DNA from: Fidelibacterota bacterium
GTDB taxonomy: Bacteria; Fidelibacterota; Marinisomatia; Marinisomatales; UBA1611
Assembly (NCBI GenBank): GCA_038281125.1
Contig: JAYNUL010000006.1
Span: 1-34,981, forward strand
Length of the DNA: 34,981 nucleotides
Direction of reading: 5' to 3'
Made by a program: the position numbers and the translations under genes
Shown: positions 1,817 to 26,600 of the stretch, in pieces
Position numbering within the stretch: position 1 is the stretch's first letter
Layout: each line of letters opens with the position of its first letter
The notes under the pieces: model-generated
Database searches by the model: none
What the model was told of the DNA's origin: nothing
The model's input: only the letters and a program-made list of their open reading frames with translations

Positions 1817-2740
1817 CTATTGTTGCTCCAACCATCTTTCTGCGTCTATAGCAGCCATGCAGCCTGATCCAGCTGCTGTTACAGCTTGCCTGTATACATG
1901 ATCCTGTACATCTCCACATGCAAAAACTCCATCAAGATTTGTATGTGTTGAGTCCGGATTTGTAATAATATATCCTGATTCATCAAGATCAATCATGCCT
2001 TTGAAAAGTGATGTATTTGGAACATGTCCTATAGCCATAAAAATACCATCACATGCTTCATTTGACATCTCATTCGTTAGTGTATCCTTGAGCATGACTG
2101 ATTGGACACCCGTGTCTTTTGTGCCAATAATTTCATCAATGGTTTGATTATACCTGAATGATATTTTAGGGTTTGAGACTGCCCTCTCTACCATTATTTT
2201 TGATGCACGAAATTCTTTTCTACGATGTATAATAACAACCTCAGAGGCAAACTTTGTCAAAAAAGTAGCCTCTTCCATAGCTGAATCTCCACCACCAACG
2301 ACCAAGACTTTTTTATCTTTGAAAAAGAATCCATCGCAGGTTGCACATGCTGATACACCATGTCCCATTAGTCTGGTTTCAGACTCTAGACCTAGTAAGC
2401 GTGCAGATGCACCAGTAGATATAATTATTGCTTCTGCAGAATATTCTTCATTATTCGCATTAACAACAAAGGGACTCTTTGAAAAATCAACGCTGTCAAC
2501 TGTTTGAAACACACATTCAGCTCCAAAACGTTTTGCTTGTTTTCTGAACTCGTCCATCATCTCTGGACCCATGATGCCGTCTGGAAACCCTGGGTAGTTT
2601 TCAACATCAGTTGTAATTGTAAGCTGACCTCCTGGTTGGGCTCCTTCAAAAACAAGTGGCTCAAGATTTGCTCTTGCTGCATAAATAGCAGCGGTCAAGC
2701 CTGCAGGTCCAGACCCAATGATGATAATTTTTCGCTTCAT
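1817..2740 (-). CDS. trxB: Thioredoxin-disulfide reductase
   Basis: 307 aa. FAD motif [16 protein letters not shown], redox-active CATCDG, NADPH motif [12 protein letters not shown], and the typical low-Mr TrxR C-terminus GDVQD...[14 protein letters not shown]. Confidence 0.95.
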
Positions 2741-8381: not shown

Positions 8382-8765
8382 TTAAATCTCCTTTTTTTGT
8401 TCAAATTCAGTTATCAGATCGTAAGTCTCCCAAACATAGCCCTCTTCAAGAAGTAAAAATGCCATATCACTGAAATAAGAATCATAATTATTTAAAGAAT
8501 CTCCATTAATATTCCAGAAGTCTGTCTCCAATATATTTTCCACATCATCAGCCGCAAACATAGTCTCTAAATTGTTTGGAGTACCATTTTGAGTAATAGT
8601 CAATGTGAAGATGACAATGAACATCATCACTGAGACCATTAATGTCCTGCGATTGTCCTTAGAATGTTGCAGTCTCATCTCAAGTTTGTAAAGGAATTCA
8701 TCCTCATTTACAACTTGATTTTCTTTAATACGAGCATCCTTTATTTGTTTTTCAAAGTCAATCAT
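8382..8765 (-). CDS. Putative anti-sigma factor (single-pass membrane protein)
   Basis: 127 aa with one TM segment, LMVSVMMFIVIFTLTIT. Its ATG overlaps the sigma-factor TGA (ATGATTGA, an 8-nt overlap). The position is typical of a cognate anti-sigma. No recognisable zinc-binding anti-sigma (ZAS) motif. Confidence 0.5.
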   Translation of the reverse strand: MIDFEKQIKDARIKENQVVNEDEFLYKLEMRLQHSKDNRRTLMVSVMMFIVIFTLTITQNGTPNNLETMFAADDVENILETDFWNINGDSLNNYDSYFSDMAFLLLEEGYVWETYDLITEFEQKKEI

Positions 8766-9282
8766 GATTAAGCCTTTGCTTTAAGGTCTTTAGCGCGTGG
8801 TGAAAGTTTACCTTAGCAGACCCCTCAGCCATTCCTGTTATCTTAGAAATCTCTTTATAGGAAAGCTCTTCTGCAATACGCATTATAACCACGCTGCGTT
8901 GTTTTTTTGGTAGCTTACTAATTTCACTCCAAAGTTCTTTTCGATTCCATTCATCTTCCACATTCGTATCTCTATATCCCTTATCAGCAGCCTTTTCAAG
9001 AGACAGAAAACTCTTCCACTTGTTTCTGGTAAACCAGCTATTTGCTGTATTAAGATTGATACGATAGAGATAGGTAGAGAAAGAAGATTTAAAACGAAAT
9101 TTTTTAAGGTGCCTGAATAGTTTGAAGAAAACATCCTGAGCGAGATCCTCTGAAACCATTCTGTCTTGTGTAATAGTATAAAAGAAACCAATCGTATTTG
9201 ATAGATGTCTTCTAACAATCTTATCAAACGCTGAGCGGTCGCCGTTCTGATATTCTTTAATGAGTTCTTGGTCATTTTGCAT
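8758..9282 (-). CDS. ECF-type RNA polymerase sigma-70 family factor
   Basis: 174 aa. Region 2 is SEDLAQDVFFKLFRHLKKF...FSTYLYRI. Region 4 helix-turn-helix is QRSVVIMRIAEELSYKEISKITGMAEGSAKVNFHHALKTLK. Confidence 0.9.
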   Translation of the reverse strand: MQNDQELIKEYQNGDRSAFDKIVRRHLSNTIGFFYTITQDRMVSEDLAQDVFFKLFRHLKKFRFKSSFSTYLYRINLNTANSWFTRNKWKSFLSLEKAADKGYRDTNVEDEWNRKELWSEISKLPKKQRSVVIMRIAEELSYKEISKITGMAEGSAKVNFHHALKTLKQRLNHD

Positions 9283-12405: not shown

Positions 12406-12843
12406 TCACAGTGATGTTTTAATTATTTGGTATTCAAGCCTACCCGAAAAATTATCTGCATTGAGAATAATCATTTCAGGAATTCCAATCACAGATATTG
12501 AATCCTCACTTGTAAATATCAATTCTGAAAATAAACCAGCACTGAGAATGGTATCCCCTTCTTGATCTACAAGAAATAAATAAGAAGAGTCAGAGGCTCC
12601 AATAGAAAGATCTTTTACGATCATTGTTGTTAAAATTTTATCTAGATCTGTGGTACTGAGTGATAGATCCCATTTGGTCTCTTCGGAGTACTTATCTCCA
12701 AGGAGAGATAAGGAAAAAAAGTCATTTTCATTTATGATGGCAGGTACATTCTCAATCAGACCATCTGTATAGTTCGGAGGACCAACACAAGAGCACAGGG
12801 CGAGACAAATCGAAATAATCAATGGGTTTATATTCTTACTCAA
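12406..12843 (-). CDS. Hypothetical secreted protein or lipoprotein
   Basis: 145 aa. The N-terminus LIISICLALCSCVG is signal- or lipobox-like. Its start overlaps the rmuC stop by 8 nt. No recognisable domain. Confidence 0.5.
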   Translation of the reverse strand: MSKNINPLIISICLALCSCVGPPNYTDGLIENVPAIINENDFFSLSLLGDKYSEETKWDLSLSTTDLDKILTTMIVKDLSIGASDSSYLFLVDQEGDTILSAGLFSELIFTSEDSISVIGIPEMIILNADNFSGRLEYQIIKTSL

Positions 12844-13939
12844 TAGTCATTCCTTTTTGTGGTTTATCTTGTCCTAGTTGAAGCTCAGAAATTTTATCCA
12901 TTGGCTTTTCAAGCTCACGCAGCCTGGGTCCTTTTAGATCCTCATAATGATTTGATAAAGCACCTAGGGATTTCCCCAGTGAATCAATTTTCCCTGTAAA
13001 AAGATCCCACTGTTTTTTAAATAATCCTACAAGTTCCTGCATCTCTCCAGCCTTTTTTTCCATGGCAAAATTTGATACCGCTTGACGAATCAATGATAGG
13101 ATTGCGTACAAGGTAATTGGAGAACAAAGAAGAATCTTTTTGCCTAAGGAAAAATCTATAAGTTCATGATCCTCCTGATTTAAGAATGCGTAGATACTCT
13201 CATTCGGAATAAATAAAAGAACGTAATCAACCGTACTGCCCTTGGGATCGATATATCCTCTTTTTGAAACCTCATTCACTCTGTTTCGAACATCAGTTAA
13301 AAATGCTTTTTTTTCAGATTCTTTTTCCGTATCAGATTCAGCAGAAACATATTTTTCATATCGAGATAATGGAAATTTCACATCCATATTAATGACTTTT
13401 TCATCGGGTAAAAGAAAAGTGAAATCTGGACGGTCTTTACCATCGGACATTTGTTCTTGTTGAGTGTAGTTAATTCCCTCAACCAATCCAATAAAATCTA
13501 AAATGTCCTTAACCATCCTCTCGCCCCACTGACCTCGAGCTTGTGAGCTTGATAAAATTTGTCTTAGCTGGGATGTTGTATCGTTTAACTTCCCAACACT
13601 TTCCTTTGACTCTTTCATTTGTCCTTCCAGTGCAATTGTATTTTTAGACAAATTATCGAGGTTATCTTTCATCTCTTTTAGGGTCGAGTCAATCAGCTCT
13701 TTTTTACCATCCAGTTCTTTAACAGAATTTTTATTTAGTTGTTCAAATTCTGATTTAGCTAGATTGAGAAATTGATTTTGATTTTCTAACAAAACCTTGT
13801 TTGAAATATTTTCAAACTCTTGTTTCATCTCCTCTTGACTTTTTTTCAGAGATTCCATTCCCTTTCGACGAACAAACCAAATAGTTAATCCACCAGAAAG
13901 GAGACCAAGTAAAAAAATTATGATCCCAGTAAAATCCAT
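12836..13939 (-). CDS. rmuC: DNA recombination protein RmuC
   Basis: 367 aa with an N-terminal TM helix and a long coiled coil. The RmuC-type C-domain follows (RPDFTFLLPDEKVINMDVKFPL, YVLLFIPNESIY, LCSPITLYAIL). Confidence 0.85.
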   Translation of the reverse strand: MDFTGIIIFLLGLLSGGLTIWFVRRKGMESLKKSQEEMKQEFENISNKVLLENQNQFLNLAKSEFEQLNKNSVKELDGKKELIDSTLKEMKDNLDNLSKNTIALEGQMKESKESVGKLNDTTSQLRQILSSSQARGQWGERMVKDILDFIGLVEGINYTQQEQMSDGKDRPDFTFLLPDEKVINMDVKFPLSRYEKYVSAESDTEKESEKKAFLTDVRNRVNEVSKRGYIDPKGSTVDYVLLFIPNESIYAFLNQEDHELIDFSLGKKILLCSPITLYAILSLIRQAVSNFAMEKKAGEMQELVGLFKKQWDLFTGKIDSLGKSLGALSNHYEDLKGPRLRELEKPMDKISELQLGQDKPQKGMTIE

Positions 13940-13940
13940 T

Positions 13941-15263
13941 TCAAAGGGTTAGAGCAAAACTATCTACTAATATACCAGGACAGGTTGTTGCCCCCAGAGA
14001 GCGTTGCCCATAGGTTGAAACCTCGGGAACTACAGTGACTTTGTCTTCGACATCAACTAATTTTTCACCAAAAAACCGATAAAAAGAATCATCAAACCTC
14101 ATCGTCTCGATTGGGGCAACAATTTCTCCGTTCTCAACCCAGAAACAAGCATATCTGGTTAAACCTGTAATTCTACCACCTGCGTTGTCGCTCCAATTGA
14201 GATAGTGTATATTTGAAAGATAAAGACCTCGGTCTATTTCTTTGGTGACATTTTCTTGATTTAGGTTACCAGGTTCCATTCTAGGAGATCTAAGATATTC
14301 ACCGCCCTCTGCAAAGTTTGATTCAACACCATATTCTTTGGCAGATCTTGAACTGACAAGAGTATTCTTTAGGGTTCCGTTTTGAATCAATGGAATTGAG
14401 TTTGGAGACACCTCTCCATTTGAATTGAATTTGGGGCAAAATCCAGGTGAAAAATCTTCTAGGATCGAAAATTTAGTTGACAGCCTGACGTCGTCATTAC
14501 GCATTCTACCAAATCCACTACAGCCCTGCCGCAGCGATGCTTCACTTATCCCATTCCAAGAAAACATGCCTAAAAAATCTGCAACAGCTGCTGCTTCAAA
14601 CCATGTTCTATACTCTCCGGTATCAATCTTCATGGGTTTTTTCTCCATAAGAGAAAGCTTTGTTCTACTTTGGCTTACATAATCCTCATACTCACTCTGG
14701 TTCCAGTCACTGCCAGCATAACAGCCTTTTACCATTTGATGTTCAGGAGTTACCAACGAATAATCCAGGCAAAAAGACTCAGTCTCAAACCAATGTTTTT
14801 GACCAAGATTATTTGCGCTCCCTCGATACATTTTCCCATTGGCCAATATTCCAACGAAATCAGTTCCTTTCATAGCAGGAAGGATCGCATCAACAGCATT
14901 TTCAAAAGCCAGCCCGTTAGCATTTTTGATTTCATGACTAGATCCAGTATCAGCTGGCATTACTAGAAATGGATCCTCTGGTATTTCTTTGGACTCTTTT
15001 CTCATTCTTTCAATTTCATTGAGCCCTCTTTTTTGATCAACATTATAATCTCCTGAAATGGTGAAACCTCCATTGCAGGTACGCCCATTAAAAATAAATT
15101 TGAGACCAAGGTCTGCATCATCAACCATTCCTGTCTGGCGAACAGAGGCATTGTTAAAGCGAACAAACTGACTGTTTTCACCATTTAGTGAAAGCACAAG
15201 GTTTTCACCGGGCATTAGTTGGGAAAAAAGTGATTCACATAGGTTGTTAAAAGTTTTTTCCAT
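13941..15263 (-). CDS. pmbA: PmbA/TldE-family metalloprotease partner subunit
   Basis: TldD/PmbA-fold sequence without an HExxxH motif (GGRITGLTRYACFWVENGEIVAPI near the C-terminus). I chose the start MEKTFNNL at 15263, 1 nt after the tldD TAA. The longer track ORF (to 15323) overlaps tldD. Confidence 0.85.
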   Translation of the reverse strand: MEKTFNNLCESLFSQLMPGENLVLSLNGENSQFVRFNNASVRQTGMVDDADLGLKFIFNGRTCNGGFTISGDYNVDQKRGLNEIERMRKESKEIPEDPFLVMPADTGSSHEIKNANGLAFENAVDAILPAMKGTDFVGILANGKMYRGSANNLGQKHWFETESFCLDYSLVTPEHQMVKGCYAGSDWNQSEYEDYVSQSRTKLSLMEKKPMKIDTGEYRTWFEAAAVADFLGMFSWNGISEASLRQGCSGFGRMRNDDVRLSTKFSILEDFSPGFCPKFNSNGEVSPNSIPLIQNGTLKNTLVSSRSAKEYGVESNFAEGGEYLRSPRMEPGNLNQENVTKEIDRGLYLSNIHYLNWSDNAGGRITGLTRYACFWVENGEIVAPIETMRFDDSFYRFFGEKLVDVEDKVTVVPEVSTYGQRSLGATTCPGILVDSFALTL

Positions 15264-15264
15264 A

Positions 15265-16707
15265 TTACATTCCTCCAAAAACTTGAATATTGCTGAACAG
15301 GCAAGCTGGCGACGCATGTCCAACCCTTATGACCTGATTAGGCTCACCTTTTCCACAATTTGGTGTACCATAAATACCAAACGTATTGAGATCCCCTACT
15401 CCTTTCAAGCTATTCCAAAAAGGAGTGGATATACCACGATAGTTAGGATTCTTAACTGTTTTGGTCAGTTTTCCATTTTCGATGAGCTTCCCGTATTCAC
15501 AACCGAACTGAAATTTGTTTCTGTAGTCATCTATCGACCAAGATTTATTACTTTCCATATACACACCATTCTCAACCTGCCCAATTAGTTCATCAAAACT
15601 TGAGTCGCCTGGTTCCAGGTTTATATTAGCCATTCTGTCAATAGGAGCTCTATTCCATCCACTTGATCTAAAATTAGCAACTCCATCAAGCCCGGAACGA
15701 ATCTGACTCTCCTTTCCACCCAAGCCCCGAACAAGAAGACCCTCTTTTATCAGATATTCCTTGGAGGCTTTTAGACCTCCATCATCAAATGCATAAGAGG
15801 CAAATTCAGATTCTAGAGTTGGATCAAAAGTAATGTTCATTAGCTTAGATCCATATTGAAGAGTTCCAAAATCCTCAAGCTTTACAAAACTCCATCCAGC
15901 ATAGTTCCTCTCATCTCCAAGGATTCTATCAACCTCCAATGCATGGCCAATACTCTCATGAATTTGTAACATCATTTGATCGGGTGCTATCACTATATCC
16001 ATTTCTCCTGTTGGGCAGTCTTCAGCATCCAAAAGTTCTATTGCTTGTTCACCGATTCTGTTTGCATTTGCCATAATCTCATATTTATCAAAATACTCTA
16101 GTCCCATTTGTCTGCAAGTTCCTCTCATTCCTCCAAAGGTTCTTGTCTGTTGATTTGAACCGTCCACAGCTGTTGCACTCAGATCAAACTCAAGCATTAA
16201 AAATTCCTGATTTATATCGCTACCATTTGAGCTCACATATCTAAAAGACGTCTCAATTAATTGGCACAAGGATGACGCGCTCACAATCTTGTCTGATACC
16301 TTTAGATTTTCATATGCTTCTAAAAGAATGCCATTCAAATTACCAGCAGACAGCGCTCTTCTATCCTTTGTGTATGGTGATTTATATTCGCCTTGAAAAG
16401 ATGGTCTCGCGGACTCATCAAACCTGTATAAAGAATTCTTTGATGCAATTTTTGCCTGTTGGAATGCATGCTTTGCAGCAAGAGATACTCCCTCTGGTGT
16501 CATATCTGGAGTTCCATAATACCCAAACTGACCATCAACTAATACCTCTACCATCAGACCGTGAGTGGATGACCTAGCATTGGCAACAGGGACACCATCC
16601 CTGATCATTCTCGGAGTATGAGCCTCGTAGACCTCTCTGATACCAACCCATTGCGCAGGAACATCAATCGCACTCAAAAGATCTTTTATTTCAATATTTA
16701 ACTTCAT
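15265..16707 (-). CDS. tldD: TldD-family zinc metalloprotease
   Basis: 480 aa with HESIGHALE (HExxxH) and downstream conserved TldD blocks (NYAGWSF, GCEYG, GEPNQVIRVGHASP). Confidence 0.9.
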   Translation of the reverse strand: MKLNIEIKDLLSAIDVPAQWVGIREVYEAHTPRMIRDGVPVANARSSTHGLMVEVLVDGQFGYYGTPDMTPEGVSLAAKHAFQQAKIASKNSLYRFDESARPSFQGEYKSPYTKDRRALSAGNLNGILLEAYENLKVSDKIVSASSLCQLIETSFRYVSSNGSDINQEFLMLEFDLSATAVDGSNQQTRTFGGMRGTCRQMGLEYFDKYEIMANANRIGEQAIELLDAEDCPTGEMDIVIAPDQMMLQIHESIGHALEVDRILGDERNYAGWSFVKLEDFGTLQYGSKLMNITFDPTLESEFASYAFDDGGLKASKEYLIKEGLLVRGLGGKESQIRSGLDGVANFRSSGWNRAPIDRMANINLEPGDSSFDELIGQVENGVYMESNKSWSIDDYRNKFQFGCEYGKLIENGKLTKTVKNPNYRGISTPFWNSLKGVGDLNTFGIYGTPNCGKGEPNQVIRVGHASPACLFSNIQVFGGM

Positions 16708-16996: not shown

Positions 16997-17437
16997 ATGA
17001 CGTTAGTAAAATGGACACCAAGACCAATGACAGTCTTTAATGAAATGGATAACATGATTAACTCAGTGTTCGATCGTGATTGGAACCTGGAACCCATACA
17101 ATCAACAAAATGGAATCCAGCAGTGGATGTTAAAGAAACAGATAGTTCTTTTTTAATTTCTGCTGACATACCAGGTCTAACTAAAAAGGATATTAACATT
17201 GAAGTTTCCGATAACGTTTTATCAATAACTGGGGAAAGGACAGAAGATAAAGTAGAGGATTCCGATCTTTATCACTACAGAGAAAGATCAAAAGGAGCTT
17301 TTACAAGATCTTTCCATTTACCTGAGTCGGTGGATGAAAAGAAAATCTCAGCAAACTTCAAAGATGGAATTCTGAGCATAGATCTTCCAAAAACAAAAGT
17401 CATCGAGCCAAAATCGAGGAAAATTAAAATCAGTTAG
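16997..17437 (+). CDS. Small heat-shock protein, Hsp20/alpha-crystallin family
   Basis: 146 aa with an alpha-crystallin domain (WNPAVDVKETDSSFLISADIPGLTKKDINIEV...FTRSFHLPESVD...ANFKDGILSIDLPK). A strong RBS is present. Confidence 0.93.
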   Translation: MTLVKWTPRPMTVFNEMDNMINSVFDRDWNLEPIQSTKWNPAVDVKETDSSFLISADIPGLTKKDINIEVSDNVLSITGERTEDKVEDSDLYHYRERSKGAFTRSFHLPESVDEKKISANFKDGILSIDLPKTKVIEPKSRKIKIS

Positions 17438-17454
17438 TCTATGGATTGTTATGA

Positions 17455-17487
17455 AGGGGCAGCAATGCCCCTCCATAATTTATTTTT
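17455..17487. terminator. Hairpin terminator between convergent hsp20 and the EF-hand flavoprotein gene
   Basis: A 7-bp stem, AGGGGCA (17455..17461) with TGCCCCT (17466..17472), carries a GCAA tetraloop. It is followed by CCATAATTTATTTTTATT on the plus strand. Confidence 0.5.
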
Positions 17488-17493
17488 ATTGAA

Positions 17494-18972
17494 CTAAAAT
17501 TTGCCTTGCTTGAGCTTGAAGCCTGATTTTTTACATGCTTTTTTCAGTTTCCTACTGTGCTTATTTGGACCACTGTAAAATACCTTCTGGATGGTGTCCT
17601 CTCCAAATTCAGAAAATATTTTTTCCCAGTCTGGTATTCCAAAACTAGATTTGCTCCACAGATTATCAACAAGGTCAATATTTGTTTCACTTTCTAAAAC
17701 ATCAGTAGATATATACATCATCTTTCTTGATATTTCGTCAGGAGATCGTTCCAAAAAATAAATATGATAATTAAAGAATTTTGGAGAACCATCTTCATCC
17801 ATCTCCTTTAGCATTTTAGTAAACCATTCAAAGTAGTTCCTTTCTTCTATCAACCAGTAGAGGTCAACTCTCTTTAGCTTGCCAATATCTGATCCATTTT
17901 TAAGTCGAATAACGATATCCTGGAGGATAGGTGCAATTCTTGAAATCCCATGACCTGCACCAACCAGTATTGCGTGACTGGTATCTAATAAATCCTGACT
18001 TGAACTGCCATAAGGGCCATCAATCCTTATGGTCCAGTCAAGTGTCTTATCACTACCTACAACCTGCAAGGTTGAATCATATAAGCGATCAGACCACTGG
18101 TTGTTCGATTTTACATGTAAAATTAAATCTCCCTCCTCTGTCTTTTTGATAATGTTAAAAGGATACCACTCTCCAGATGAGATTTCTTTACAATTGAGAT
18201 ACAAATAGTCACCTGGGGTATAGGTGAAGTTTTTTGGTGCAGATATGGTTAACTCCAGCACCTTTGAAGGCAGCAAACTGATTGAATGTAAATCAACAAA
18301 GGTTCGATTCTTTTTTCTGTTGACCAAAACATTATAAATAAAAATAATCTTTGGAATCATTAACCATTGAAAAAACCCTATGTCCTGGACCTGTATCGAT
18401 GAGATCATTGAACTAGACTTGTCTTCTATCACTTTAGAATCCACTTTTTGGTATCGATCAGGAACAAGCCAGTGTAATGGATTCACAGCAAAACCCTCCA
18501 TGAAATCAGGATAATCATTTGCTACATCAAGAAATTCACCAAAGTCAATGGTTCCACTGAAATCTTTATCTGCTTTTTGGAAAAATTCATCCACTAATAG
18601 ATCCAATTGAAACTCATCATAGTCTAAATTGTTTTCTAAAAAACTTTGTTTAATGAGTATTTTTAGCTCATTCCGATCTATAAATCCGTTGTTATCAAGG
18701 TCATGTAATTGAAAAGCGAATTTGATTTTATCTTTTGCAGATCCATCTACCATGGACTGAATAGTAGTTACGAATTCTCCATAGTCTACAGATCCGCTAG
18801 AGTCTTGATCAAATAGTTCAAACAATCTATCAGAGATTTCATAGTTTTCAATTCCAAGACCATTACGAAATTCTTCCTTATCGATGAGCTGGTCCTCCCC
18901 CGCAATCTCTCTAAATCTATTTTTAAGATCAATTAGGAATGGACCAACTAATTTTTTTGACTCGTTAATCAA
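17494..18972 (-). CDS. EF-hand Ca-binding protein fused to a NOX/ferric-reductase-type FAD/NAD(P)H dehydrogenase domain, with a single hydrophobic helix and no heme domain
   Basis: 492 aa with three canonical EF loops: DQDSSGSVDYGEF (aa 55-67), DLDNNGFIDRNEL (91-103) and DKDFSGTIDFGEF (135-147). One hydrophobic segment spans aa 199-217. NOX-like blocks follow: WYPFNI (HPFT-like), IDGPYG, ILVGAGHGISRIAPIL, LYWL...FEWF, VFYSGP, and a C-terminal Phe. Confidence 0.8.
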   Translation of the reverse strand: MINESKKLVGPFLIDLKNRFREIAGEDQLIDKEEFRNGLGIENYEISDRLFELFDQDSSGSVDYGEFVTTIQSMVDGSAKDKIKFAFQLHDLDNNGFIDRNELKILIKQSFLENNLDYDEFQLDLLVDEFFQKADKDFSGTIDFGEFLDVANDYPDFMEGFAVNPLHWLVPDRYQKVDSKVIEDKSSSMISSIQVQDIGFFQWLMIPKIIFIYNVLVNRKKNRTFVDLHSISLLPSKVLELTISAPKNFTYTPGDYLYLNCKEISSGEWYPFNIIKKTEEGDLILHVKSNNQWSDRLYDSTLQVVGSDKTLDWTIRIDGPYGSSSQDLLDTSHAILVGAGHGISRIAPILQDIVIRLKNGSDIGKLKRVDLYWLIEERNYFEWFTKMLKEMDEDGSPKFFNYHIYFLERSPDEISRKMMYISTDVLESETNIDLVDNLWSKSSFGIPDWEKIFSEFGEDTIQKVFYSGPNKHSRKLKKACKKSGFKLKQGKF

Positions 18973-19055
18973 GTATGTTTTCCATGTTAAGATTGATTGA
19001 AGTCCTTTAATTTATAGAAAGGTTTATAATCAAAATGATAATTTTTATTACTTAA

Positions 19056-20009
19056 ATGATACACGATAACATACTTAGTACTATCGGAAACACTCCAGTG
19101 GTGAGGATGAATAAAATAGGCAATGAACTAGAGTGTGAACTTTTCTCAAAGTGCGAGTTTCTTAATCCTGGTGGATCAATAAAAGATCGCATAGGCTGGA
19201 AAATGGTTGAGGACGCTGAACAATCTGGAAGAATTAAACCCGGAGACACGCTCATTGAACCTACTTCAGGTAATACTGGACAAGGGATAGCCCTCGCGGC
19301 TGCGGTAAAGGGATACGAGTGCATTATCACTCTACCAGAAAAAATGAGCAAAGAAAAGCAGATAGCTTTGGAGGCCTTGGGTGCTAAGATCATACGTACG
19401 CCCACTGAAGCATCGTTTGATTCACCTGATAGTCATATCGGGGTAGCAAAAAAGCTACAGGAAGAGATCCCTAATTCACATATTTTAGACCAGTATGCAA
19501 ATCCTTCAAACCCTGAAGCTCATTACGATGGCACTGCTCAGGAAATCTTAGATGTTTTCGGAAAGGATCTTCACATGGTGGTAATGGGTGTTGGTACCGG
19601 GGGAACCATTACAGGGGTTGCAAAACGATTAAAAGAAGAGATCCCTGATATTGTCATAGTAGGTGCAGATCCCGTTGGATCTATTCTTGGTGGAGGAACA
19701 GAGGTAGAGCCTTATTTGGTAGAGGGTATAGGATATGACTTTTTTCCTGAAGTGTTAGATAATAATCTTGTGGATGAATATGTAAAGACAGAGGACGAAG
19801 AATCATTTATTATGGCACGCAGACTAATAAAAGAAGAAGGGTTTTTGTGTGGCGGATCTTGCGGATCTGCAATGGTTGCAGCACTAAAAAGTGCAAAACA
19901 TTTAGACAAAGACAAAAAATGTCTGGTCGTTCTTCCTGATAGTATTCGAAACTACATGACCAAGTTTCCAAACGATCAATGGATGAAAGACCAAGGGTTC
20001 AAGGTCTGA
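19056..20009 (+). CDS. Cystathionine beta-synthase-like / cysteine synthase family PLP enzyme (catalytic core only)
   Basis: 317 aa. The block [66 protein letters not shown] closely tracks the CBS catalytic core as I recall it. The C-terminal [18 protein letters not shown] is also CBS-like. There is no Bateman (CBS-pair) domain and no heme domain. Confidence 0.9.
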
Positions 20010-21865
20010 AATCAATCGTTAAAATTTTAGCCTATACTTTAGGCATCATGCTATCTCTATGGGCAATGACTGTGTCCTACCTATCAAATGCACGTCCTGA
20101 TATAACCTGGGACTGGGACAGCATCAATACCAGAGATATACATTTCCCATCAAATTTCGCATGGGGCACTGCTACTGCGGCACACCAGGTTGAGGGCAAC
20201 AATTCCAATAACAACTGGTACCAGTGGGAAAAGGCAGTGGATGAAAACGGTGTCTCTAGAATCCATAATAATGATAGCTCTGCTATGGCAGCAGATCACT
20301 GGAATCGATACCCTGAAGACATCCTTTTAATGAAAGATCTGGGTGTTAGCCACTATAGATTTTCCATTGAGTGGTCTCGAATTGAGCCACAAGAGGGATA
20401 TTATGACCTTGAGTCACTTTCCCACTACCGTGAAATGTGCTTGGCAATGATAAAGGCTGGGATAACGCCAGTGGTAACCTTACATCATTTTACACATCCT
20501 ATTTGGTTTGAAGAGTTAGGGGCCTTCGAAGAAGAAACGAACACGGAGCACTTTACAAAATTTGCAAAACTTGTCTTCCAAGAGTTAATGGACATTGTTC
20601 CCATCTGGTGTACGTTTAATGAGCCCTCTGTTTTTGTTGCACAGGGATATTTTAATGGTATATTCCCTCCTGGTAAAAAGGATCCAGTATTAGCTGGCAC
20701 CGTTCTGGAGAATATGCTAAATGCGCACGTAGAGACCTACCATTTATTGAAAGCTATTCCAGGATCTGAAAAGGTTAAGATTGGCCTTGTTAAAAATATA
20801 TTTCAATTTGACCCTTTAAGGAGGTGGCATCTACTTGACTGGGCATTCAGCAAGATACTTAACGATGTTTATACAAATGCACCTTTAGAATTTCTAAAAA
20901 CAGGAAAATCTTCTTTCTATATGCCAGGTATGGTAGATAATGAAATGTTAAATCCAGAGGCACCTGGCACCCTTGATTTCATAGGCCTAAACTACTACTC
21001 CAGGATGCACGTTAAGGGAAGTCTTAATCCTAAAGAGCCATTTGTTTTTGATACCCGGCAACAGGATATTATGACTGATATGGGATACCCGCTATATGCA
21101 GAAGGATTTTACAGAGCACTTAAGACAATTAGTAATGTGGGGGTTCCGATATACGTCACAGAAAATGGCCTCGCAGATGATAAAGACACCGTTCGCCCTC
21201 TTTTTATAGAGAGGTATCTGTATGCGCTCAATCAGGCTCTCAAGGAGAGAATTGACATCCGTGGTTATTTCTATTGGAGTTTAATGGATAATTTTGAATG
21301 GGCAGAAGGCTACAGCATGAAGTTTGGCCTGTATGAGGTTAATCTGGAGACCCAAGAACGTATACTCAGAAAAGGTAGCCAGCCATTTATTGATATGGTG
21401 ACAAAGAGAGGAGCTGATGAACGAGGATATTTGGTAAGTGTAGGCGAAATAGCTCCAAATTTTACTATGGAATATATTACCGGTGAAAAAGTAAAACTGT
21501 CTGACCTCAGAGGAAAGGTTGTAGTATTACAGTTTACTGCGAGCTGGTGTTCTGTATGCAGAAAAGAGATGCCTCACCTTGAAAAAGATGTATGGCAGGC
21601 ATTCAAGGATAAGGATGTGGTTCTAATTGGAGTCGATCGAGATGAACCGCTGGATGTAGTCTTAAAATTTCAAAAAGAAATGGGAACAACATACCCACTC
21701 GCACTTGATCCTGGTGCAAACATATTTGGTCTCTTTGCTGACAAGAATTCTGGTGTGACACGAAATGTAGTCATTGACCAGAATGGAAAAATAGTATTCC
21801 TTACTAGACTTTTTGAGGAAAGGGAGTATCAGGAAATGATTAAAAAAATAGAGTCTCTTCTCTAG
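19979..21865 (+). CDS. Membrane-anchored GH1 beta-glucosidase fused to a C-terminal TlpA/AhpC-TSA-like thioredoxin-fold domain (WCSVC)
   Basis: 628 aa with an N-terminal anchor [23 protein letters not shown] after basic residues. GH1 signatures: [34 protein letters not shown] (acid/base Glu), YVTENG (nucleophile Glu), [13 protein letters not shown]. From about nt 21430 comes [41 protein letters not shown], typical of TlpA/ResA-like proteins. The start overlaps the CBS-like gene by 31 nt. Confidence 0.85.
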
Positions 21866-22520: not shown

Positions 22521-23624
22521 CTATTTCCGCATCATCAGATCATTACACTGTTCTAGTGCTTGGTTAACATGCTCAAGCATTTCAGGGTCATCCTTGATTT
22601 TGGATTCCATTGCAACATTTTGAAAGCTGATGCTATTGGATCTTAGGCTCAATACCTCTTTCATTTCCCTGATGGTTTCTCTGCTTGATCTAATATTAGT
22701 AAGAATGCTTGGACTATCTGCATATAGATCGTCTAGGGGAATGGTCGGGTCTTTATCCTGATACCTTTCGATGCGTTTCTTTAAATATCTGATCTTTGCC
22801 TCGTAATATGAACGATTGATTATGCGATCATTTTCGTCAATGATAGATACATCTACTTGATTTAAATAGCGCCCTTCCCTGCCTGATGAAAATACAAAAG
22901 GACCATTCTCTTTTTGATCCATCATTGGCCTAGTCATAAAGGTACTTCCACTTGTAAAAATTAAATCTGCCGATGGAAAAATTTCATGTAAATCACCATA
23001 AGTAGAGCGATCACTGTTAATAAGTAAAACAGTCATGTCTACCCTTCCCTCCATAGCACTTAAATAGATGTTGCCGGCAATGGTATAGTCATCTAAGATC
23101 AATTGTTCAATCGTATCAGGAACAAGATCAGTCAGTCCGATTACACCAAACCTGATTCCACCACGATTGATAAGGGTATAGGGCTTAAAAATTGGCTCTT
23201 CAGTATTTGGATCCAATAGGTTTGCAGATATGAAAGGTATGGAAGTCTGAGAAGCAATTTTCATCAGAGTATCAAGACCTGCAGCCAGCTCAAATTGTCC
23301 CACATTGATGGCATCACAGCCAATTTTATTGAATCCCTTGATCATAGCAGATCCACGATAGATTTCTGAGGATCGATTAGAGTCAACCAAAGAAGATGTC
23401 GTAAACAATAAGTCACCAGCATCAAGGATGATGGGCTGTATTCCTTGATTTCTTAGTTCATTTATTGCAGTTATTTTTCTAGACAGACCGCCCAAAGGTT
23501 TATTTGGTCATCCACATGGATCTAACTGACCATGAACACTGCCGGTAACAACTATGGTTGCAACATTCTGTGATAGCACCATGGTTGAAATCAGAAAAAG
23601 CCATGGAACTAATTTATGGATCAT
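22521..23624 (-). CDS. Exported metallophosphoesterase / 5'-nucleotidase-like protein with an in-frame TGA at 23510..23508 (candidate selenocysteine; alternatively a nonsense pseudogene)
   Basis: The track ORF starts at TTG 23495, but the frame continues upstream through one TGA to ATG 23624..23622. That ATG overlaps the giant ORF stop (ATGA). The upstream 38 codons, MIHKLVPWLFLISTMVLSQNVATIVVTGSVHGQLDPCG, supply a signal peptide and the first phosphoesterase motif region. Downstream are ILDAGDLLF (GD motif) and a degenerate GNHE-like VGQFE. Confidence 0.6.
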
Positions 23625-26600
23625 TTTAATAGCATAACCTTGTGGGTTCTAAAATTTGTACCATCATTGATGACTACGAAATAGATACCTGACGAAAGTG
23701 AGCTACCATCATCATTCCTACCATTCCAGACCACCTCATGTCGTCCCATATCCTTCCATCCACTCACCAACTTAGCTATTTGCTGTCCCTTTATATTTAC
23801 GATCGTCATCCTGACATTTCGAGGTTCAGGAAGTCCATATCTTATGGTTGTTGAAGGATTAAACGGATTTGGAAAGTTGCCAGAGATAGATAGTTCCTCA
23901 GGAATCATGGACAATACGTCACCAATTTTGGCTACCACATCAGACTCATCTCCTGCCACTATCTTCACTCTTCTATCATAGCGAGGATCGAGGGTTCCAA
24001 AGAAAAGTTGAGTGTCACTTTTCATGTCTATGACGTTTCTGGTTGAAAGGTCTACCAAACGAATATCAACGTCTACAGGTAAATCCTGAATCACAGACCA
24101 AGATAGATCAACATCAGAGTCTGTATCACTCCTGACATGCATATCCCAAACGTTTACCTGCTGGCCTAGAGAACGTATGTCAGAGGTAAGCTCAAGTGCC
24201 TCTCCCTCTAACCTGAAAAATAATGACACACCAGTGCCTGGAGATCGTATCTCAGGGTTATCATGCCACTCTAGCGCATCCTCGGCGGTCTCAAGCGCCC
24301 CTAATGTATTAATATGATCACCATGGGCACCAGAGCTCAAGCCTAGAGATACAAGCCAACCGCTTTCTTCCACTTTTCTTGCAACAGTAGTACCAGATCC
24401 AATGGATGGGTCTAAGGTTATGATCTGGTCAGTGGACATTCTGTTATATACCACATACCCATTCCATGGATCAAGCTCTGTGACCACAGGGCTCCAACTT
24501 TCTCCACTTATCCCATAAGTAAGAGGACCATAGAACTGTACCTGGTCCAGTTGCAACGGAACCTGGAATGGATAAGGGGAGCCGATAAAGTTCCATCCTG
24601 TTTTTAAAGTAATCTCTGTTCCAGCCATGTCACCTGTTTTACCTGCTGGGGTATCCATAGTTAGATTATCCTCAGTCTTCTGATAGATCCAATAGGATTC
24701 GGTACTGTTAAGATCTACCGGATTATCTTTGTAAGTGTTTGAAACATCATCATACCTAAACACTCTCCAAATGGTGTTATCCTGCGTACCTAATTCATCA
24801 AAAACCTGAGTGAGTCCAGTCTCATTTAATACAGCAGGCGTAGAAATAAGTCTCCATGCATCCATGGGAAGCCCTGTTGGATAGGCACTACCACTGGCTG
24901 AGTTTGTGGTGAGTGTCCCTGATGCAAAATTGACAGGAGCGCCAAGAGTATCGGATGAACTTGAAAATCCCAGTACATCCTGAGACATTACAAAGTACAG
25001 CAATCCACTCTGAGTAACAGAGCTACCAGGTATTGTTCCGCTGTAGGTACCCTGACCATCATTGACCATTGCGGTAGAGGAATAAGAATCACTTCCTCCT
25101 GGGGCATAGTAAAGAGTAACACTCTCAATTCCTGTATCATCAAAAACATTCACACTTACCTGAGCATCAACCAAAACGCCAGGTTCTACTGGATTCAGGG
25201 TTAGTGATGTGGCGACTGGACCCTTTGTATCCATAAAACTATTATCAGTCGAATTAGAAATGAGAGCCCACTGACTAAAGGACGACTGATTTTTGGCAAC
25301 TACTTGACCAGTAACCGTATCAACCTCAGTTTCTGATACTGCAATCACTTGCCATGGTTCCGAAGTTCCTGAATTACCTGGTCTCTTTGCTATACGTAAA
25401 GTATTAGGTGAATCAATTCCTGGTAAAATACTATATGACAATCTTATATCGGTAACAAAATTACCTTCAATATCCGTGGATATTTCGTAGTACTGTTCTG
25501 GGTATACTGGGTCTGTTAGAATACCGTCTGGGTCTACAAATGGAGTATTTTCATCAACGGGTGGTAGTGTTGATACCCCCTGAACAGTAACGGTTCCCCC
25601 AGCAGAGTTTACAAAATCCAATACCAGACCAATCGACTCTCCATTCTCATTCGTAAAGGTAATCGGTGGTGTGTTTCCTGATGGAATTGTTACCGTAGTA
25701 TCAGTTATTTGGCTGTCATCTCCTAGAAGATTTAAGAAAATATCCATCACATGGGTGTTTGATAATAATTCTGAAGGATTCTCTCCTGTATTTGTGTCGA
25801 AATAGATATTCCCATTGTAGATACCCGGGTCCAGGTTTGCGGTGTTAACAACGTTTACTACTATTGTGCTGTCGGTGGTACCAAGAATCTGTCCAGTTGA
25901 TACTGTTTCAAGCCATACCCATCCTGCAAAATCTGCACTGACTGAGGAAGCATAGTTCAATGGGTAGTCTCCACTATTGGTTACCTCAAGATCAAAAGAA
26001 AGATCATTGCCTTGATAGGTAACTACCGAGATTGAGGTTGCGGCAAACTCCGCAGTTGGAGGTATCCATCCTTCTCCTGCTGCACTCACTGCCACTATCT
26101 CATTTGGACTTGCAGGTGTGGTAAAGATTATGTTTCCAGCCGCAGAACCTCTCGCAGATGGCTGAAAGGTTAGATTCAATTGCCCCGCTGCATCAACGGG
26201 AAGAATAAGGCTTGTGGAAACATCTGTTGAAAAGTCGCTTGAACTCTCAACTGATATAGTAGCAATGGTAAGGTCAACATTTCCATTATTTTCAAAAGAA
26301 AGTACCTGTACTGAATCCTCCCCAATGAGAACCCCGGAAAAATCAATATTTTGAGTTGGTATTTTCAATCCAGACAACTCAATAATGGAACTTCCTGTAA
26401 GGTATGTATCGCTGAGAATAGTCAAATTCTCCTCATAGTAGCCACTAAGTTCAGGTGAAAAGGTCACCGTTAACTCACCGGATGCTCCAGGATCTAATGC
26501 CGTTGCTGTTGGACCCTCCCATGCTTGATCAAAAACTGCAAGAGGAAGATCAATTTCACTAATCGTTAATGTATCCGTTCCTGTATTTGTTAGGGTAAAT

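What the first reader, a model, noticed from the sequence alone, without database searches (positions are those of the whole stretch)
17494..18972. NOX5-like EF-hand plus FAD/NAD(P)H dehydrogenase protein that lacks the six-helix heme domain
The N-terminal 150 aa carry three canonical EF-hand loops. The C-terminal roughly 260 aa carry the diagnostic blocks of NADPH-oxidase/ferric-reductase dehydrogenase domains: YPF (for HPF), IDGPYG, VGAGHGISRIAPIL, LYWL...FEWF, VFYSGP, and a terminal Phe.

In NOX5, RBOH and bacterial NOX5-type enzymes these two parts flank a six-helix, bis-heme transmembrane domain. Here only about 50 residues with one hydrophobic helix (FFQWLMIPKIIFIYNVLV, followed by NRKKNR) lie between them. 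It looks like a retained equivalent of the last NOX helix.

Without hemes the protein cannot move electrons across the membrane. A single span would also put the EF-hands and the NAD(P)H domain on opposite sides, and there is no signal peptide for the 198-aa N-terminal part. It may therefore be a Ca-gated soluble or peripheral flavin reductase, or it may need a separate heme partner. Either way this would be an unusual prokaryotic Ca-to-redox signalling architecture.
Basis: partly seen in the sequence, partly recalled or inferred. Interest (0 to 1): 0.65.

Follow-up and report, generated by a model that had tools for sequence, protein, structure and literature searches.

The report
Heme-less NOX5 relative in Marinimicrobia
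This marine bacterial gene encodes a calcium-binding NADPH-oxidase-5 relative that lost five of its six membrane helices and both hemes in one ancient deletion yet is kept under strong selection, so it probably works as a calcium-responsive flavin enzyme inside the cell rather than as an oxidase.

Summary
ORF 17494-18972 (-) encodes 492 aa with four EF-hands (three canonical), a ~55-residue connector holding one hydrophobic helix, and NOX-type FAD- and NAD-binding domains. There is no Ferric_reduct heme domain. Human NOX5 is the best PDB match (E 9e-70), and the alignment skips NOX5 residues ~168-371 (TM1-TM5).

It is not an artefact. Independent assemblies span the junction. At least 118 protein clusters (42-95% identity, 478-507 aa) share the architecture, and 38 loci from Candidatus (Neo)marinimicrobiota MAGs carry the complete gene (37 intact) in conserved synteny. 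dN/dS is 0.12 overall and 0.03 in the TM6 remnant. The clade is monophyletic inside bacterial NOX5. A canonical full-length NOX5 coexists in one MAG.

New caveat: the cofactor motifs are re-tuned, not merely retained. HPFT became YPFN, the GxGxxP proline became Arg/Lys in all 118, and CGP became SGP. These are positions where NOX2 mutations abolish activity. Basic residues of the NADPH site are lost, and one Asp needed for Ca activation of csNOX5 is not conserved.

No heme-domain gene lies within 10 kb in any locus. Best reading: a Ca-responsive, cytoplasmic or peripheral NAD(P)H (perhaps NADH) flavoprotein reductase. A non-catalytic sensor and a split-NOX subunit remain open. It is a new variant of a known kind.

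The parts
17494..18972 (-). Whole gene: 492-aa EF-hand + TM6-remnant + FAD/NAD(P)H dehydrogenase protein (stop codon 17494-17496)
   Evidence: ORF list. Pfam. PDB phmmer best hit human NOX5, E 9e-70. 118 homologous clusters of the same length. dN/dS 0.12.
18925..18972 (-). Conserved N-terminal peptide (res 1-16, M-I-N-x-S-K-K-L-x-G-P-F-L), role unknown
   Evidence: N3, S5, K7, L8, G10, P11, F12 and L13 are each >=90% conserved in 118 sequences. 27 of 38 loci use a TTG or GTG start at this position.
18463..18924 (-). NOX5-type EF-hand domain (res 17-170), including the pre-TM1 remnant AVNPxxWLxPDRY (res 162-174)
   Evidence: Aligns in register with human NOX5 residues 14-167, 94 bits. V163, P165 and W168 are invariant. 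dN/dS 0.09.
18871..18906 (-). EF1, non-canonical NOX5-type loop (res 23-34, IAGEDQLIDKEE)
   Evidence: G25, D27, I30 and E34 are invariant in 118/118. Same pattern as human NOX5 IAGEDGEISLQE.
18775..18810 (-). EF2, canonical Ca loop (res 55-66, DQDSSGSVDYGE)
   Evidence: Loop positions 1, 3 and 12 are invariant; position 9 is D in 117/118.
18667..18702 (-). EF3, canonical Ca loop (res 91-102, DLDNNGFIDRNE)
   Evidence: D91, D93, G96, D99 and E102 are invariant in 118/118.
18535..18570 (-). EF4, canonical Ca loop (res 135-146, DKDFSGTIDFGE)
   Evidence: D135 and E146 are invariant; D137 is 117/118 and D143 is 115/118.
18394..18447 (-). Junction linker (res 176-193) that replaces the ~200 residues of TM1-TM5. 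Variable and predicted disordered.
   Evidence: Alignment with full-length bacterial NOX5. pLDDT < 50 for residues 177-193. dN/dS 0.38-0.94, near neutral.
18301..18393 (-). TM6 remnant plus hinge (res 194-224: QVQDIG-FFQWLMIPKIIFIY-N-VLV-NRKKNR). The most constrained part of the gene.
   Evidence: Aligns to NOX5 TM6, residues 372-391. P207, R/K208 and N214 are fixed in 118/118. dN/dS 0.03. KD19 maximum 1.55, borderline for a TM span. Helix 200-216 in AF2 with pLDDT ~50-59.
17998..18294 (-). FAD-binding domain (res 227-325) with YPFN in place of HPFT and an invariant DGPYG
   Evidence: PF08022, E 2e-19. Foldseek to the csNOX5 DH domain, TM 0.81-0.86. Y270 98/118 and N273 101/118. dN/dS 0.08-0.11.
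17497..17970 (-). NAD(P)H-binding domain (res 335-492) with GxGxx(R/K), WL(I)(E/D), DNLW, SGP and a C-terminal Phe. Includes the REFBD-equivalent segment at res ~413-436.
   Evidence: PF08030, E 8e-18, 65 bits versus 102-121 bits in full-length relatives. Motif statistics. dN/dS 0.15-0.17.
17449..17478 (.). 13-bp GC-rich hairpin between the convergent EF-DH and hsp20 genes. Likely a shared, bidirectional terminator.
   Evidence: RNA fold -20.6 kcal/mol, z -4.25, 0 of 200 shuffles as good.
18973..19055 (.). 83-nt divergent intergenic region shared with the cystathionine-beta-synthase-core gene (19056-20009, +)
   Evidence: ORF coordinates. The same divergent arrangement, with an ~88-95 nt gap, occurs in loci at 42-62% identity. 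The sigma-70 scan was uninformative.

Best explanation
The gene encodes a heme-less descendant of a bacterial NOX5. One ancient in-frame deletion in a Marinimicrobia ancestor removed TM1-TM5 and all four heme ligands, so it cannot carry electrons across the membrane.

What remains is the complete cytosolic module of NOX5: the four-EF-hand Ca sensor, the pre-TM1 stub, TM6 with its hinge, and the FAD/NAD(P)H dehydrogenase domain with the REFBD-equivalent segment. In intact NOX5, Ca acts inside this module by letting NADPH reach FAD. An isolated bacterial NOX DH domain (SpNOX) works as an NAD(P)H:flavin reductase.

The most likely mechanism is therefore as follows. Cytoplasmic Ca binds the EF domain. 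The EF domain repositions on the DH domain. Hydride passes from NAD(P)H to a flavin, and the reduced flavin passes electrons to a soluble or membrane-surface acceptor such as free flavin, Fe(III) chelate, quinone or O2. The loss of basic 2'-phosphate-type residues and the gain of an acidic residue after beta-2 suggest the donor is NADH rather than NADPH.

The former TM6 no longer spans the membrane as part of a bundle. It is a short, very strongly conserved hydrophobic helix with a fixed central Arg/Lys. It most likely tethers the protein to the inner face of the membrane or forms a specific protein-protein or oligomer contact.

Shown: architecture, ancestry, Ca-ligand conservation, purifying selection, absence of a neighbouring heme partner. 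Inferred: flavin binding, catalysis, donor, acceptor, Ca gating and the role of the helix.
For: Architecture and homology.

Real and selected: 118 clusters of 478-507 aa. 37 of 38 complete CDS are intact. Independent contigs cross the junction. dN/dS is 0.12 overall, 0.09 in the EF domain, 0.03 in TM6 and 0.08-0.17 in the DH domain. 110 alignment columns are conserved in the same residue class in both the truncated and full-length groups. Low-level metatranscriptome coverage appears in four runs.

Single origin inside bacterial NOX5: 100% bootstrap for the clade and for bacterial versus metazoan NOX5.

Ca binding: all ligand positions of the four EF loops are invariant or nearly so.

Flavin and nucleotide fold kept: DGPYG and G342 are invariant, G340 is 96%, and the C-terminal aromatic is F in 95/118. 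The csNOX5 DH domain superposes at rmsd 2.8 A. AF2 gives pTM 0.74. Whole-chain TMq to Ca-bound human NOX5 8u85 is 0.59, against ~0.45 for DH-only hits, which hints at a NOX5-like EF-DH arrangement.

Literature: Ca gates NADPH-to-FAD transfer through EFD-DHD contacts (PMC11088703, PMC7317449). The isolated SpNOX DH domain is a flavin reductase using NADH or NADPH (PMC11031084).

Not a TM bundle: KD19 is 1.55, R/K208 is fixed where full-length proteins have V/L/I, and there is no signal peptide for the 198-aa N-terminal part.

No FRD-like ORF lies within 10 kb in any of the held loci carrying the gene, and synteny shows no membrane redox gene.
Against: The residues changed are those whose mutation kills NOX2 (H338Y, T341K, P415H/L, C537R; PMC4550764). 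Here they are Y 83%, N 86%, R/K 100% and S 88%. A few members have V or I at the Thr/Ser position, which cannot hydrogen-bond flavin N5.

The NAD_binding_6 score is about half that of full-length relatives.

In SpNOX the TM domain contributes to FAD binding (PMC11031084), and that part is missing here.

The Asp equivalent to csNOX5 D631, essential for EF activation, is D in only 24/118. The D611 equivalent is acidic in 57%. The canonical coupling may therefore be altered.

AF2 places the helix with low confidence.

No biochemical data exist, and expression evidence is thin. The NADH inference rests on recalled rules for Rossmann and FNR folds, not on a test made here.
Confidence: 0.5

Rival explanations
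1. Non-catalytic sensor or regulator (pseudo-oxidase). The EF domain still binds Ca, and the DH fold still binds a nucleotide or flavin. Hydride transfer has been lost or is vestigial. The protein signals Ca and/or redox-nucleotide state to another protein through the conserved TM6 helix or the N-terminal peptide.
For: There are fixed substitutions at all four NOX2 loss-of-function positions (PMC4550764). V or I occurs at the N5-contact position in some members. Arg/Lys residues of the NADPH site are lost. 16 columns invariant in full-length NOX5 are relaxed here, including the activation Asp. The NAD-domain profile score is halved. The most constrained segments are the non-catalytic ones: TM6 at 0.03 and EF at 0.09. 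27 of 38 loci use a non-ATG start and RNA depth is low, which fits a low-abundance regulator.
Against: The replaced residues are themselves strongly conserved (R/K345 100%, S467 88%, N273 86%). That pattern is re-tuning, not decay. The glycine-rich loop, DGPYG and the C-terminal aromatic lid are kept. FNR-family enzymes tolerate Cys-to-Ser, and Fre lacks the GxGxxP proline (recalled, not tested here). The FAD domain has dN/dS 0.08-0.11.
Confidence: 0.27
2. Subunit of a split NOX. The EF-TM6-DH protein docks through the conserved TM6 helix onto a separately encoded membrane heme protein. Candidates are a stand-alone FRD/MsrQ-like protein, or the coexisting full-length NOX5 or multiheme cytochrome system. 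It would supply that protein with electrons, as Fre supplies MsrQ in E. coli.
For: The TM6 remnant is the most constrained region (dN/dS 0.03) and has invariant polar residues (P207, R/K208, N214). This suggests a specific partner rather than a generic anchor. AF2 cannot place the helix on its own chain. There is a precedent in the two-component MsrQ+Fre system (PMC11031084). At least one MAG (SI053_bin69) carries both the truncated gene (L015) and a full-length NOX5 (L045).
Against: No FRD-like ORF lies within 10 kb of the gene in any of the held loci that carry it. The conserved synteny contains no membrane redox protein. A single membrane span would put the EF and DH domains on opposite sides. 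Only 3 full-length NOX5 loci were found against 41 truncated ones in the genome scan, though the scan patterns favoured the truncated family. A profile search for stand-alone TM1-TM5 proteins found none, but that search was insensitive because it also missed known full-length NOX5s. The one apparent split NOX5 (L050) is a scaffold-gap artefact.
Confidence: 0.18
3. Artefact or decaying pseudogene: an assembly deletion or a recent inactivating deletion of a NOX5 gene.
For: Only the bare fact that ~200 residues are missing relative to NOX5. One MAG copy (L047) has a premature stop.
Against: 118 clusters down to 42% identity keep the same length and an open frame. dN/dS is 0.12. Independent assemblies from several studies cross the junction without indels. 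The clade is old and monophyletic.
Confidence: 0.01

Closest known systems
Bacterial NOX5 (Cylindrospermum stagnale csNOX5 and relatives in Planktothrix, Tychonema, Acaryochloris, Kapabacteria, Myxococcales, and full-length NOX5 of Marinimicrobia)
   Same: N-terminal four-EF-hand domain, pre-TM1 motif, TM6 with its Pro, FAD_binding_8 + NAD_binding_6 domains, REFBD-equivalent segment and C-terminal Phe. Identity is 29-36% over the shared parts. The truncated clade groups with these proteins at 100% bootstrap against metazoan NOX5.
   Different: It lacks TM1-TM5 and hence both hemes and the O2 site. HPFT, GxGxxP, CGP, WxNR, TGLK and GRPDW are all altered. The hinge Glu is Asn, and there is an Arg/Lys in the middle of TM6. 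It cannot be a transmembrane oxidase.
Human NOX5 (PDB 8u7y/8u85/8u87)
   Same: Best PDB sequence match (E 9e-70) and best fold match (E 8e-25). The EF domain aligns in register. The mechanism of Ca gating at the NADPH-to-FAD step lies wholly in the parts retained here (PMC11088703).
   Different: No TM domain, no CXXC zinc insertion and no PhosR insertion. One activation Asp is not conserved.
Isolated SpNOX dehydrogenase domain and E. coli Fre (NAD(P)H:flavin reductases of the FNR superfamily), including the Fre + MsrQ two-component NOX-like system
   Same: A NOX/FNR-type two-domain dehydrogenase without a heme domain. The SpNOX DH domain alone reduces free flavins with NADH or NADPH (PMC11031084). 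Fre, like this family, lacks the GxGxxP proline (recalled). There is a weak NCBIfam similarity to Fre and LuxG.
   Different: Fre and the SpNOX DH domain have no EF-hand domain and no TM6 helix. The NCBIfam scores are far below cut-off (23.7 versus 230 bits), so this is not a Fre orthologue. No MsrQ-like partner is encoded nearby.
Calcineurin B / CBL / NCS-type EF-hand Ca sensors
   Same: A four-EF-hand, two-lobe sensor domain. PDB hits at E 1e-22 to 1e-15.
   Different: Here the sensor is fused to its target enzyme domain, as in NOX5.

Membership tests
NOX / NADPH oxidase family (NOX5 subfamily) | Six-helix ferric-reductase transmembrane domain (PF01794) with four heme-ligating histidines on TM3 and TM5 | tested here: not met
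   No PF01794 hit at E <= 1, whereas all full-length relatives hit it. The alignment shows TM1-TM5 replaced by a ~25-aa linker. There is only one borderline hydrophobic segment.
NOX / NADPH oxidase family (NOX5 subfamily) | NOX-type FAD-binding domain (PF08022) followed by a NOX-type NAD-binding domain (PF08030) | tested here: met
   69.9 and 65.5 bits against cut-offs of 22 and 22.2. Fold match to the csNOX5 DH domain at TM 0.81-0.86.
NOX / NADPH oxidase family (NOX5 subfamily) | N-terminal regulatory domain of four EF-hands (NOX5-specific) | tested here: met
   In-register alignment to human NOX5 residues 14-167. Loop ligands are invariant.
NOX / NADPH oxidase family (NOX5 subfamily) | Canonical cofactor motifs HPFT, G-x-G-x-x-P and C-G-P | tested here: not met
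   The motifs read YPFN, GHGIS(R/K) and SGP. Family counts are Y 98/118, N 101/118, R/K 118/118 and S 104/118. All are canonical in 12/12 full-length bacterial NOX5.
NOX / NADPH oxidase family (NOX5 subfamily) | Transmembrane electron transfer from NADPH to O2 (superoxide production) | not testable with these tools
   Needs biochemistry. It is excluded in principle by the absence of hemes.
Ferredoxin-NADP reductase (FNR)-like superfamily | Two-domain fold: a beta-barrel flavin domain plus a Rossmann-like NAD(P)H domain with a glycine-rich loop and a C-terminal aromatic lid | tested here: met
   Foldseek hits to FNR, Fre, flavohemoglobin and NqrF at E 1e-9 to 1e-11. G340 and G342 are conserved, and the C-terminal residue is F in 95/118.
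FNR-like superfamily | Ser/Thr at the fourth position of the R/H-x-(Y/F)-(S/T) flavin motif (contact to flavin N5) | tested here: not met
   Asn in 101/118, Thr in 11, Ser in 2, Val or Ile in 4.
Fre / LuxG NAD(P)H:flavin reductases | Match to the NCBIfam equivalog models above their cut-offs | tested here: not met
   NF005963 scores 23.7 bits against a cut-off of 230. NF052252 scores 19.2 against 340. It may work like a flavin reductase, but it is not a member.
Two-component NOX-like systems (FRD membrane protein + soluble FNR-type reductase, e.g. MsrQ + Fre) | A separately encoded FRD/heme membrane partner | tested here: inconclusive
   None within 10 kb in any held locus carrying the gene. 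The genome-wide search was insensitive. One MAG has a full-length NOX5 elsewhere.
EF-hand Ca-binding proteins | 12-residue loops with D/N/S at positions 1, 3 and 5, Gly at 6 and Glu at 12, arranged in pairs | tested here: met
   Three canonical loops plus one NOX5-type loop. The ligands are invariant in 118 sequences. Pfam EF-hand_1, _6 and _7 score above their cut-offs.

The most novel reading that the evidence does not exclude
The family is a new class of bacterial signalling enzyme: a cytoplasmic, Ca-gated, NADH-dependent flavin reductase, and hence an Fe(III) or O2 reducer, made by removing the heme domain from a NOX5. Its ultra-conserved ex-TM6 helix would serve as a docking element that hands electrons, or a Ca signal, to a specific partner. 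That partner could be the full-length NOX5 / multiheme-cytochrome module also found in Marinimicrobia. If so, this would be direct evidence for Ca-to-redox signalling in an abundant, uncultured ocean phylum. It would also provide a natural soluble model of the NOX5 EF-DH switch.
Probability: 0.2. Interest if true: 0.8.

Novelty: new variant of a known kind. Interest (0 to 1): 0.62.

Why it matters
NOX enzymes are defined by their heme membrane domain, and published surveys of the superfamily collected members through that domain (PMC3591440). A conserved lineage that discarded it would therefore have been missed. I found no description of one in the searchable literature. Public records call these proteins 'hypothetical' or 'EF-hand domain-containing'.

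If the protein is active, it shows that the Ca-sensing EF-DH module of NOX5 is a self-sufficient functional unit. It would also be a naturally soluble system for studying how Ca gates hydride transfer, which is hard to do with the membrane enzymes.

The fixed substitutions fall at the positions that cause chronic granulomatous disease in NOX2. They are a natural experiment on what those residues are for.

The family also adds a concrete, testable case of intracellular Ca signalling in bacteria, in Marinimicrobia/SAR406, an uncultured marine lineage that the gene places in many estuary and seawater metagenomes.

If the protein is inactive, it is a clear bacterial example of an enzyme turned into a sensor.

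Tried and rejected
1. Assembly or frameshift artefact: rejected.

2. Pseudogene: rejected by dN/dS.

3. Adjacent heme or membrane partner: none found in six neighbourhoods at 42-62% identity. None found by scanning all 2385 ORFs of 51 held sequences with a TM1-TM5 HMM.

4. Stand-alone TM1-TM5 proteins in the 5.8-billion-protein database, searched with a 12-sequence profile. There were only two hits and it missed known NOX5s, so this negative result carries little weight.

5. P0337/L050 looked like a natural EF+TM / DH split. It is a scaffold N-gap with duplicated flanks.

6. Sigma-70 promoter scan of the divergent intergenic region: fewer hits than in shuffles, so uninformative, and this phylum may use other promoters.

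7. Sister-group placement of the truncated clade among bacterial NOX5: unresolved (support <= 51%). Whether it arose from the Marinimicrobia full-length gene cannot be said.

8. Mapping of Q196 to the last TM5 heme histidine: seen in alignment A2 but not in the joint alignment, so I do not rely on it.

9. Amphipathic in-plane helix: the hydrophobic moment is modest (0.52), so this is neither supported nor excluded.

Only pLDDT, pTM and Foldseek TM-scores were used.

11. Citation for the NOX2 ribose and adenine NADPH-binding subregions: not found in PMC8228183. That mapping is therefore argued only from conservation in full-length relatives.
Full report
**1. The observation**

The ORF is at 17494..18972 on the minus strand: 492 aa with a TTG start. 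Pfam finds three EF-hand stretches, FAD_binding_8 (residues 227-325, E 2e-19) and NAD_binding_6 (335-480, E 8e-18). It finds no Ferric_reduct domain.

A phmmer search of the PDB gives human NOX5 as best hit (E 9e-70) in three collinear stretches:
- q17-170 = NOX5 14-167 (EF domain)
- q199-301 = NOX5 372-476 (TM6 plus FAD domain)
- q315-491 = NOX5 519-718 (NADPH domain)

NOX5 residues ~168-371, which are TM1-TM5, have no counterpart. The crystallised csNOX5 dehydrogenase domain matches at E 5e-49.

An AlphaFold2 model built on 118 homologues has pLDDT 79.5 and pTM 0.74. The linker 177-193 is disordered, and there is a low-confidence helix at 200-216. Foldseek returns the human NOX5 cryo-EM structures first (E 8e-25).

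**2. Is it real?**

The protein database holds 166 relatives at E <= 1e-10. The best 120 are 422-507 aa (a few are contig-cut fragments), 42-95% identical, and carry the same Pfam set without PF01794. I aligned 118 of them, all 478-507 aa.

An exhaustive HMMER scan of 1.84 billion representatives shows only two full-length 50%-identity clusters with this architecture. The next relatives are 630-690-aa proteins with EF-hands, Ferric_reduct, FAD and NAD domains. These are cyanobacterial (Planktothrix, Tychonema, Cylindrospermum, Acaryochloris), Kapabacteria and Myxococcales NOX5.

Aligned to them, the family lacks ~200 residues, replaced by a ~25-residue variable linker. The edges are sharp: AVNPxxWLxPD upstream, and QVQDIG-x-F-Q-W-L-L-I-P, the start of TM6, downstream.

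Further evidence that the gene is genuine:
- Contigs from independent estuary and seawater metagenomes of three studies cross the junction with no indel.
- 37 of 38 complete coding sequences extracted from related loci are intact.
- For seven close pairs (dS 0.2-0.85), dN/dS is 0.12 overall. By region it is 0.09 (EF domain), 0.03 (TM6 remnant plus hinge), 0.11 (FAD domain), 0.15 (NAD domain) and 0.38-0.94 (junction linker).
- Pieces of the gene appear at low depth in four metatranscriptomes, next to a much more abundant hsp20 transcript.

It is neither an artefact nor a pseudogene.

**3. Who has it and where did it come from?**

A scan of one genome per GTDB species found 44 loci, 41 of them with the truncated form. 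All taxonomically named records are Candidatus (Neo)marinimicrobiota, also known as Marinimicrobia or SAR406.

The gene sits in a conserved block: GH1-TlpA fusion <- cystathionine-beta-synthase core <- | -> EF-DH <- hsp20 -> (DegT) TldD PmbA RmuC ... AddA-like helicase. This holds from 42% to 95% identity.

Three further loci (L044-L046) encode canonical full-length NOX5 of 662-664 aa in the same phylum. One of them (L045) is from the same MAG, SI053_bin69, as a truncated copy (L015). The two forms are therefore paralogues that can coexist.

In a neighbour-joining tree on 490 shared columns:
- The truncated clade is monophyletic (100%).
- Bacterial NOX5 plus the truncated clade separate from metazoan NOX5 (100%).
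- The sister group of the truncated clade is unresolved.

This fits one ancient deletion in a bacterial NOX5.

**4. What has been kept**

- All four EF loops keep their Ca ligands in essentially all 118 sequences.
- The pre-TM1 motif (V163, P165, W168) is invariant.
- The flavin-domain DGPYG, the glycine-rich loop (G340 96%, G342 100%), W373, Y380, W383 and the C-terminal Phe (95/118) are kept.
- The segment equivalent to the NOX5 regulatory EF-binding domain (q~413-436) is present, with a conserved K-M-M-Y-I-S-T-D core.
- In a joint alignment with 12 full-length bacterial NOX5, 110 columns are conserved in the same residue class in both groups.

**5. What has changed**

Nineteen columns are conserved in both groups but with a different residue class, and 16 are relaxed. 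They concentrate in the cofactor sites.

| Site | Full-length bacterial NOX5 | Truncated family |
|---|---|---|
| HPFT | HPFT | Y(98)/H(17)/F(3)-P-F-N(101)/T(11)/V,I(4) |
| Pro of GIGVTP | Pro | Arg (69) or Lys (49), 118/118 basic |
| CGP | Cys | Ser (104) / Cys (13) |
| GPYG(T/S)P | Pro | Ser |
| W-x-N-R | Arg | W-L-(I)-(E/D), acidic in 75/118 |
| T-G-L-(K/R) | Lys/Arg | D-N-L-W |
| G-R-P-D-W | Arg | G-(I/L)-P-D-W |

In NOX2, the mutations H338Y, T341K, P415H/L and C537R in 338-HPFT-341, 410-GIGVTP-415 and 535-FLCGPE-540 abolish activity (PMC4550764). The family therefore carries non-canonical residues at all four positions, including the identical H-to-Y change.

The new residues are themselves strongly conserved, so this looks like re-tuning rather than decay. 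An acidic residue after beta-2 and the loss of basic residues is the usual signature of NADH rather than NADPH use in Rossmann and FNR-type folds. That rule is recalled knowledge and was not tested here.

Two Asp of the DH domain are essential for EF-dependent activation of csNOX5 (D611/D631; human D638/D658; PMC7317449, PMC11088703). They map to q413 and q433 by my indexing of the alignments. Position 413 is acidic in 57% of the family. Position 433 is Asp in only 20%, against 12/12 in full-length bacterial NOX5. Ca binding is retained, but the coupling contact may differ.

**6. The helix**

The former TM6 is the most hydrophobic segment, but it is borderline (KD19 1.55, family median 1.53) and is only ~17 residues long in the model. 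Pro207 is inherited from NOX5. Position 208 is V/L/I in full-length proteins and Arg/Lys in 118/118 here. The hinge Glu, the E283-R284 pair of NOX2 (PMC11031084), is Asn in 118/118.

Three facts argue against a simple membrane span:
- dN/dS is 0.03.
- There is no signal peptide for the 198-residue N-terminal part.
- A single span would separate the EF and DH domains.

They fit a specific contact instead: an inner-leaflet tether, an oligomer interface or a partner-docking element.

**7. Mechanism**

In human NOX5, Ca binding to the EF domain frees NADPH to approach FAD. The EF domain acts directly on the DH domain through the REFBD segment (PMC11088703, PMC7317449). The isolated DH domain of SpNOX is an NAD(P)H:flavin reductase. 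In the intact SpNOX enzyme, part of the FAD site is supplied by the TM domain (PMC11031084).

The protein here is the cytosolic module of NOX5 with nothing downstream of the flavin. My best explanation (0.5) is a Ca-responsive NAD(P)H flavoprotein reductase, probably using NADH. It would act on a soluble or membrane-surface acceptor at the cytoplasmic side.

Rivals:
- A non-catalytic Ca/nucleotide sensor (0.27). It is favoured by the altered catalytic residues and by the fact that the non-catalytic segments are the most constrained.
- A split-NOX subunit that docks on a separate heme protein (0.18). It is favoured by the ultra-conserved helix. Against it, no FRD-like ORF lies within 10 kb in any locus, and there is the topology problem.
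- An artefact or pseudogene, which is excluded.

**8. Comparison and novelty**

The protein is homologous to NOX5 but fails the defining feature of the NOX family, the heme domain, and three canonical motifs. It should be filed as a NOX5-derived, FNR-superfamily EF-DH protein, not as a NADPH oxidase. It is not a Fre or LuxG orthologue, because the NCBIfam scores are far below cut-off.

Public records name it 'hypothetical' or 'EF-hand domain-containing protein'. The main survey of the superfamily collected proteins through the FRD domain (PMC3591440) and so could not have seen it. Full-text searches found no description.

Verdict: a real, conserved new variant of a known kind, with moderately high interest (0.62). 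Its functional proposal is plausible but unproven, and it needs the caveat that the cofactor sites are re-tuned.

Noticed in passing
L044 1843-7920; L045 6026-11968 (also L046): The canonical full-length NOX5 of Marinimicrobia (662-664 aa) is the last gene of a cluster: porin-like protein, then a 320-aa protein with several CxxCH heme-c motifs, then a ~490-aa protein with many CxxCH motifs, then NOX5. In L045 the NOX5 start overlaps the preceding stop codon. This suggests that the outer heme of this NOX5 feeds periplasmic multiheme cytochromes rather than O2, i.e. NAD(P)H-driven extracytoplasmic electron transfer.
   Followed up: partly
window 19979-21865 (+): A 628-aa fusion of a GH1 beta-glucosidase-like domain with a C-terminal ResA/TlpA-type CxxC thiol-disulfide oxidoreductase (AhpC-TSA/Redoxin) domain, with an N-terminal hydrophobic anchor. 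The fusion is conserved next to the CBS-core gene in all related loci examined. It is an odd domain pairing of unknown function.
   Followed up: partly
window 23621-34822 (-): A 3733-aa ORF with a beta-helix region, HYDIN/ASH/DUF1573 Ig-like repeats, a lamin-tail domain and a C-terminal T9SS sorting domain (Por_Secre_tail). Probably a giant secreted surface protein or adhesin.
   Followed up: no
window 18925-18972 (-) and family N-termini: The first 13 residues, M-(I/L/V)-N-x-S-(K/N/H)-K-L-x-G-P-F-L, are nearly invariant across the family. One member (P0073) starts MGNTSNKL, which resembles the N-myristoylation-type N-terminus of eukaryotic NCS/calcineurin-B proteins. 27 of 38 loci use a TTG or GTG start codon here.
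   Followed up: partly
window 17449-17478: A 13-bp GC-rich hairpin (-20.6 kcal/mol, z -4.25) lies between the convergent EF-DH and hsp20 genes. It is a probable bidirectional terminator without a clear T-tract.
   Followed up: yes
window 16997-17437 (+): The adjacent hsp20 gene is covered at 9-15x word depth in three of the four metatranscriptomes examined, against 2-3x for the EF-DH gene. The hsp20/EF-DH convergent pairing is conserved across the whole family.
   Followed up: partly
L047 10001-11456: In one MAG (LRMED-178) the copy of the gene ends in a premature stop after 361 aa. This is either a sequencing or assembly error or a rare inactivated copy.
   Followed up: no
L050 5980-8003: An apparent natural split of a full-length NOX5 into EF+TM and DH genes is a scaffold artefact: a run of N sits at the junction with duplicated YFEVF on both sides. 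It should not be counted as a two-gene NOX.
   Followed up: yes
window 1817-2740 (-), 8758-9282 (-), 9415-12390 (+), 12836-16707 (-): The remaining context is ordinary bacterial housekeeping: thioredoxin reductase, an ECF-type sigma factor, an AddA-like helicase-nuclease, RmuC and the TldD/PmbA pair. It is syntenic with other Marinimicrobia loci.
   Followed up: yes
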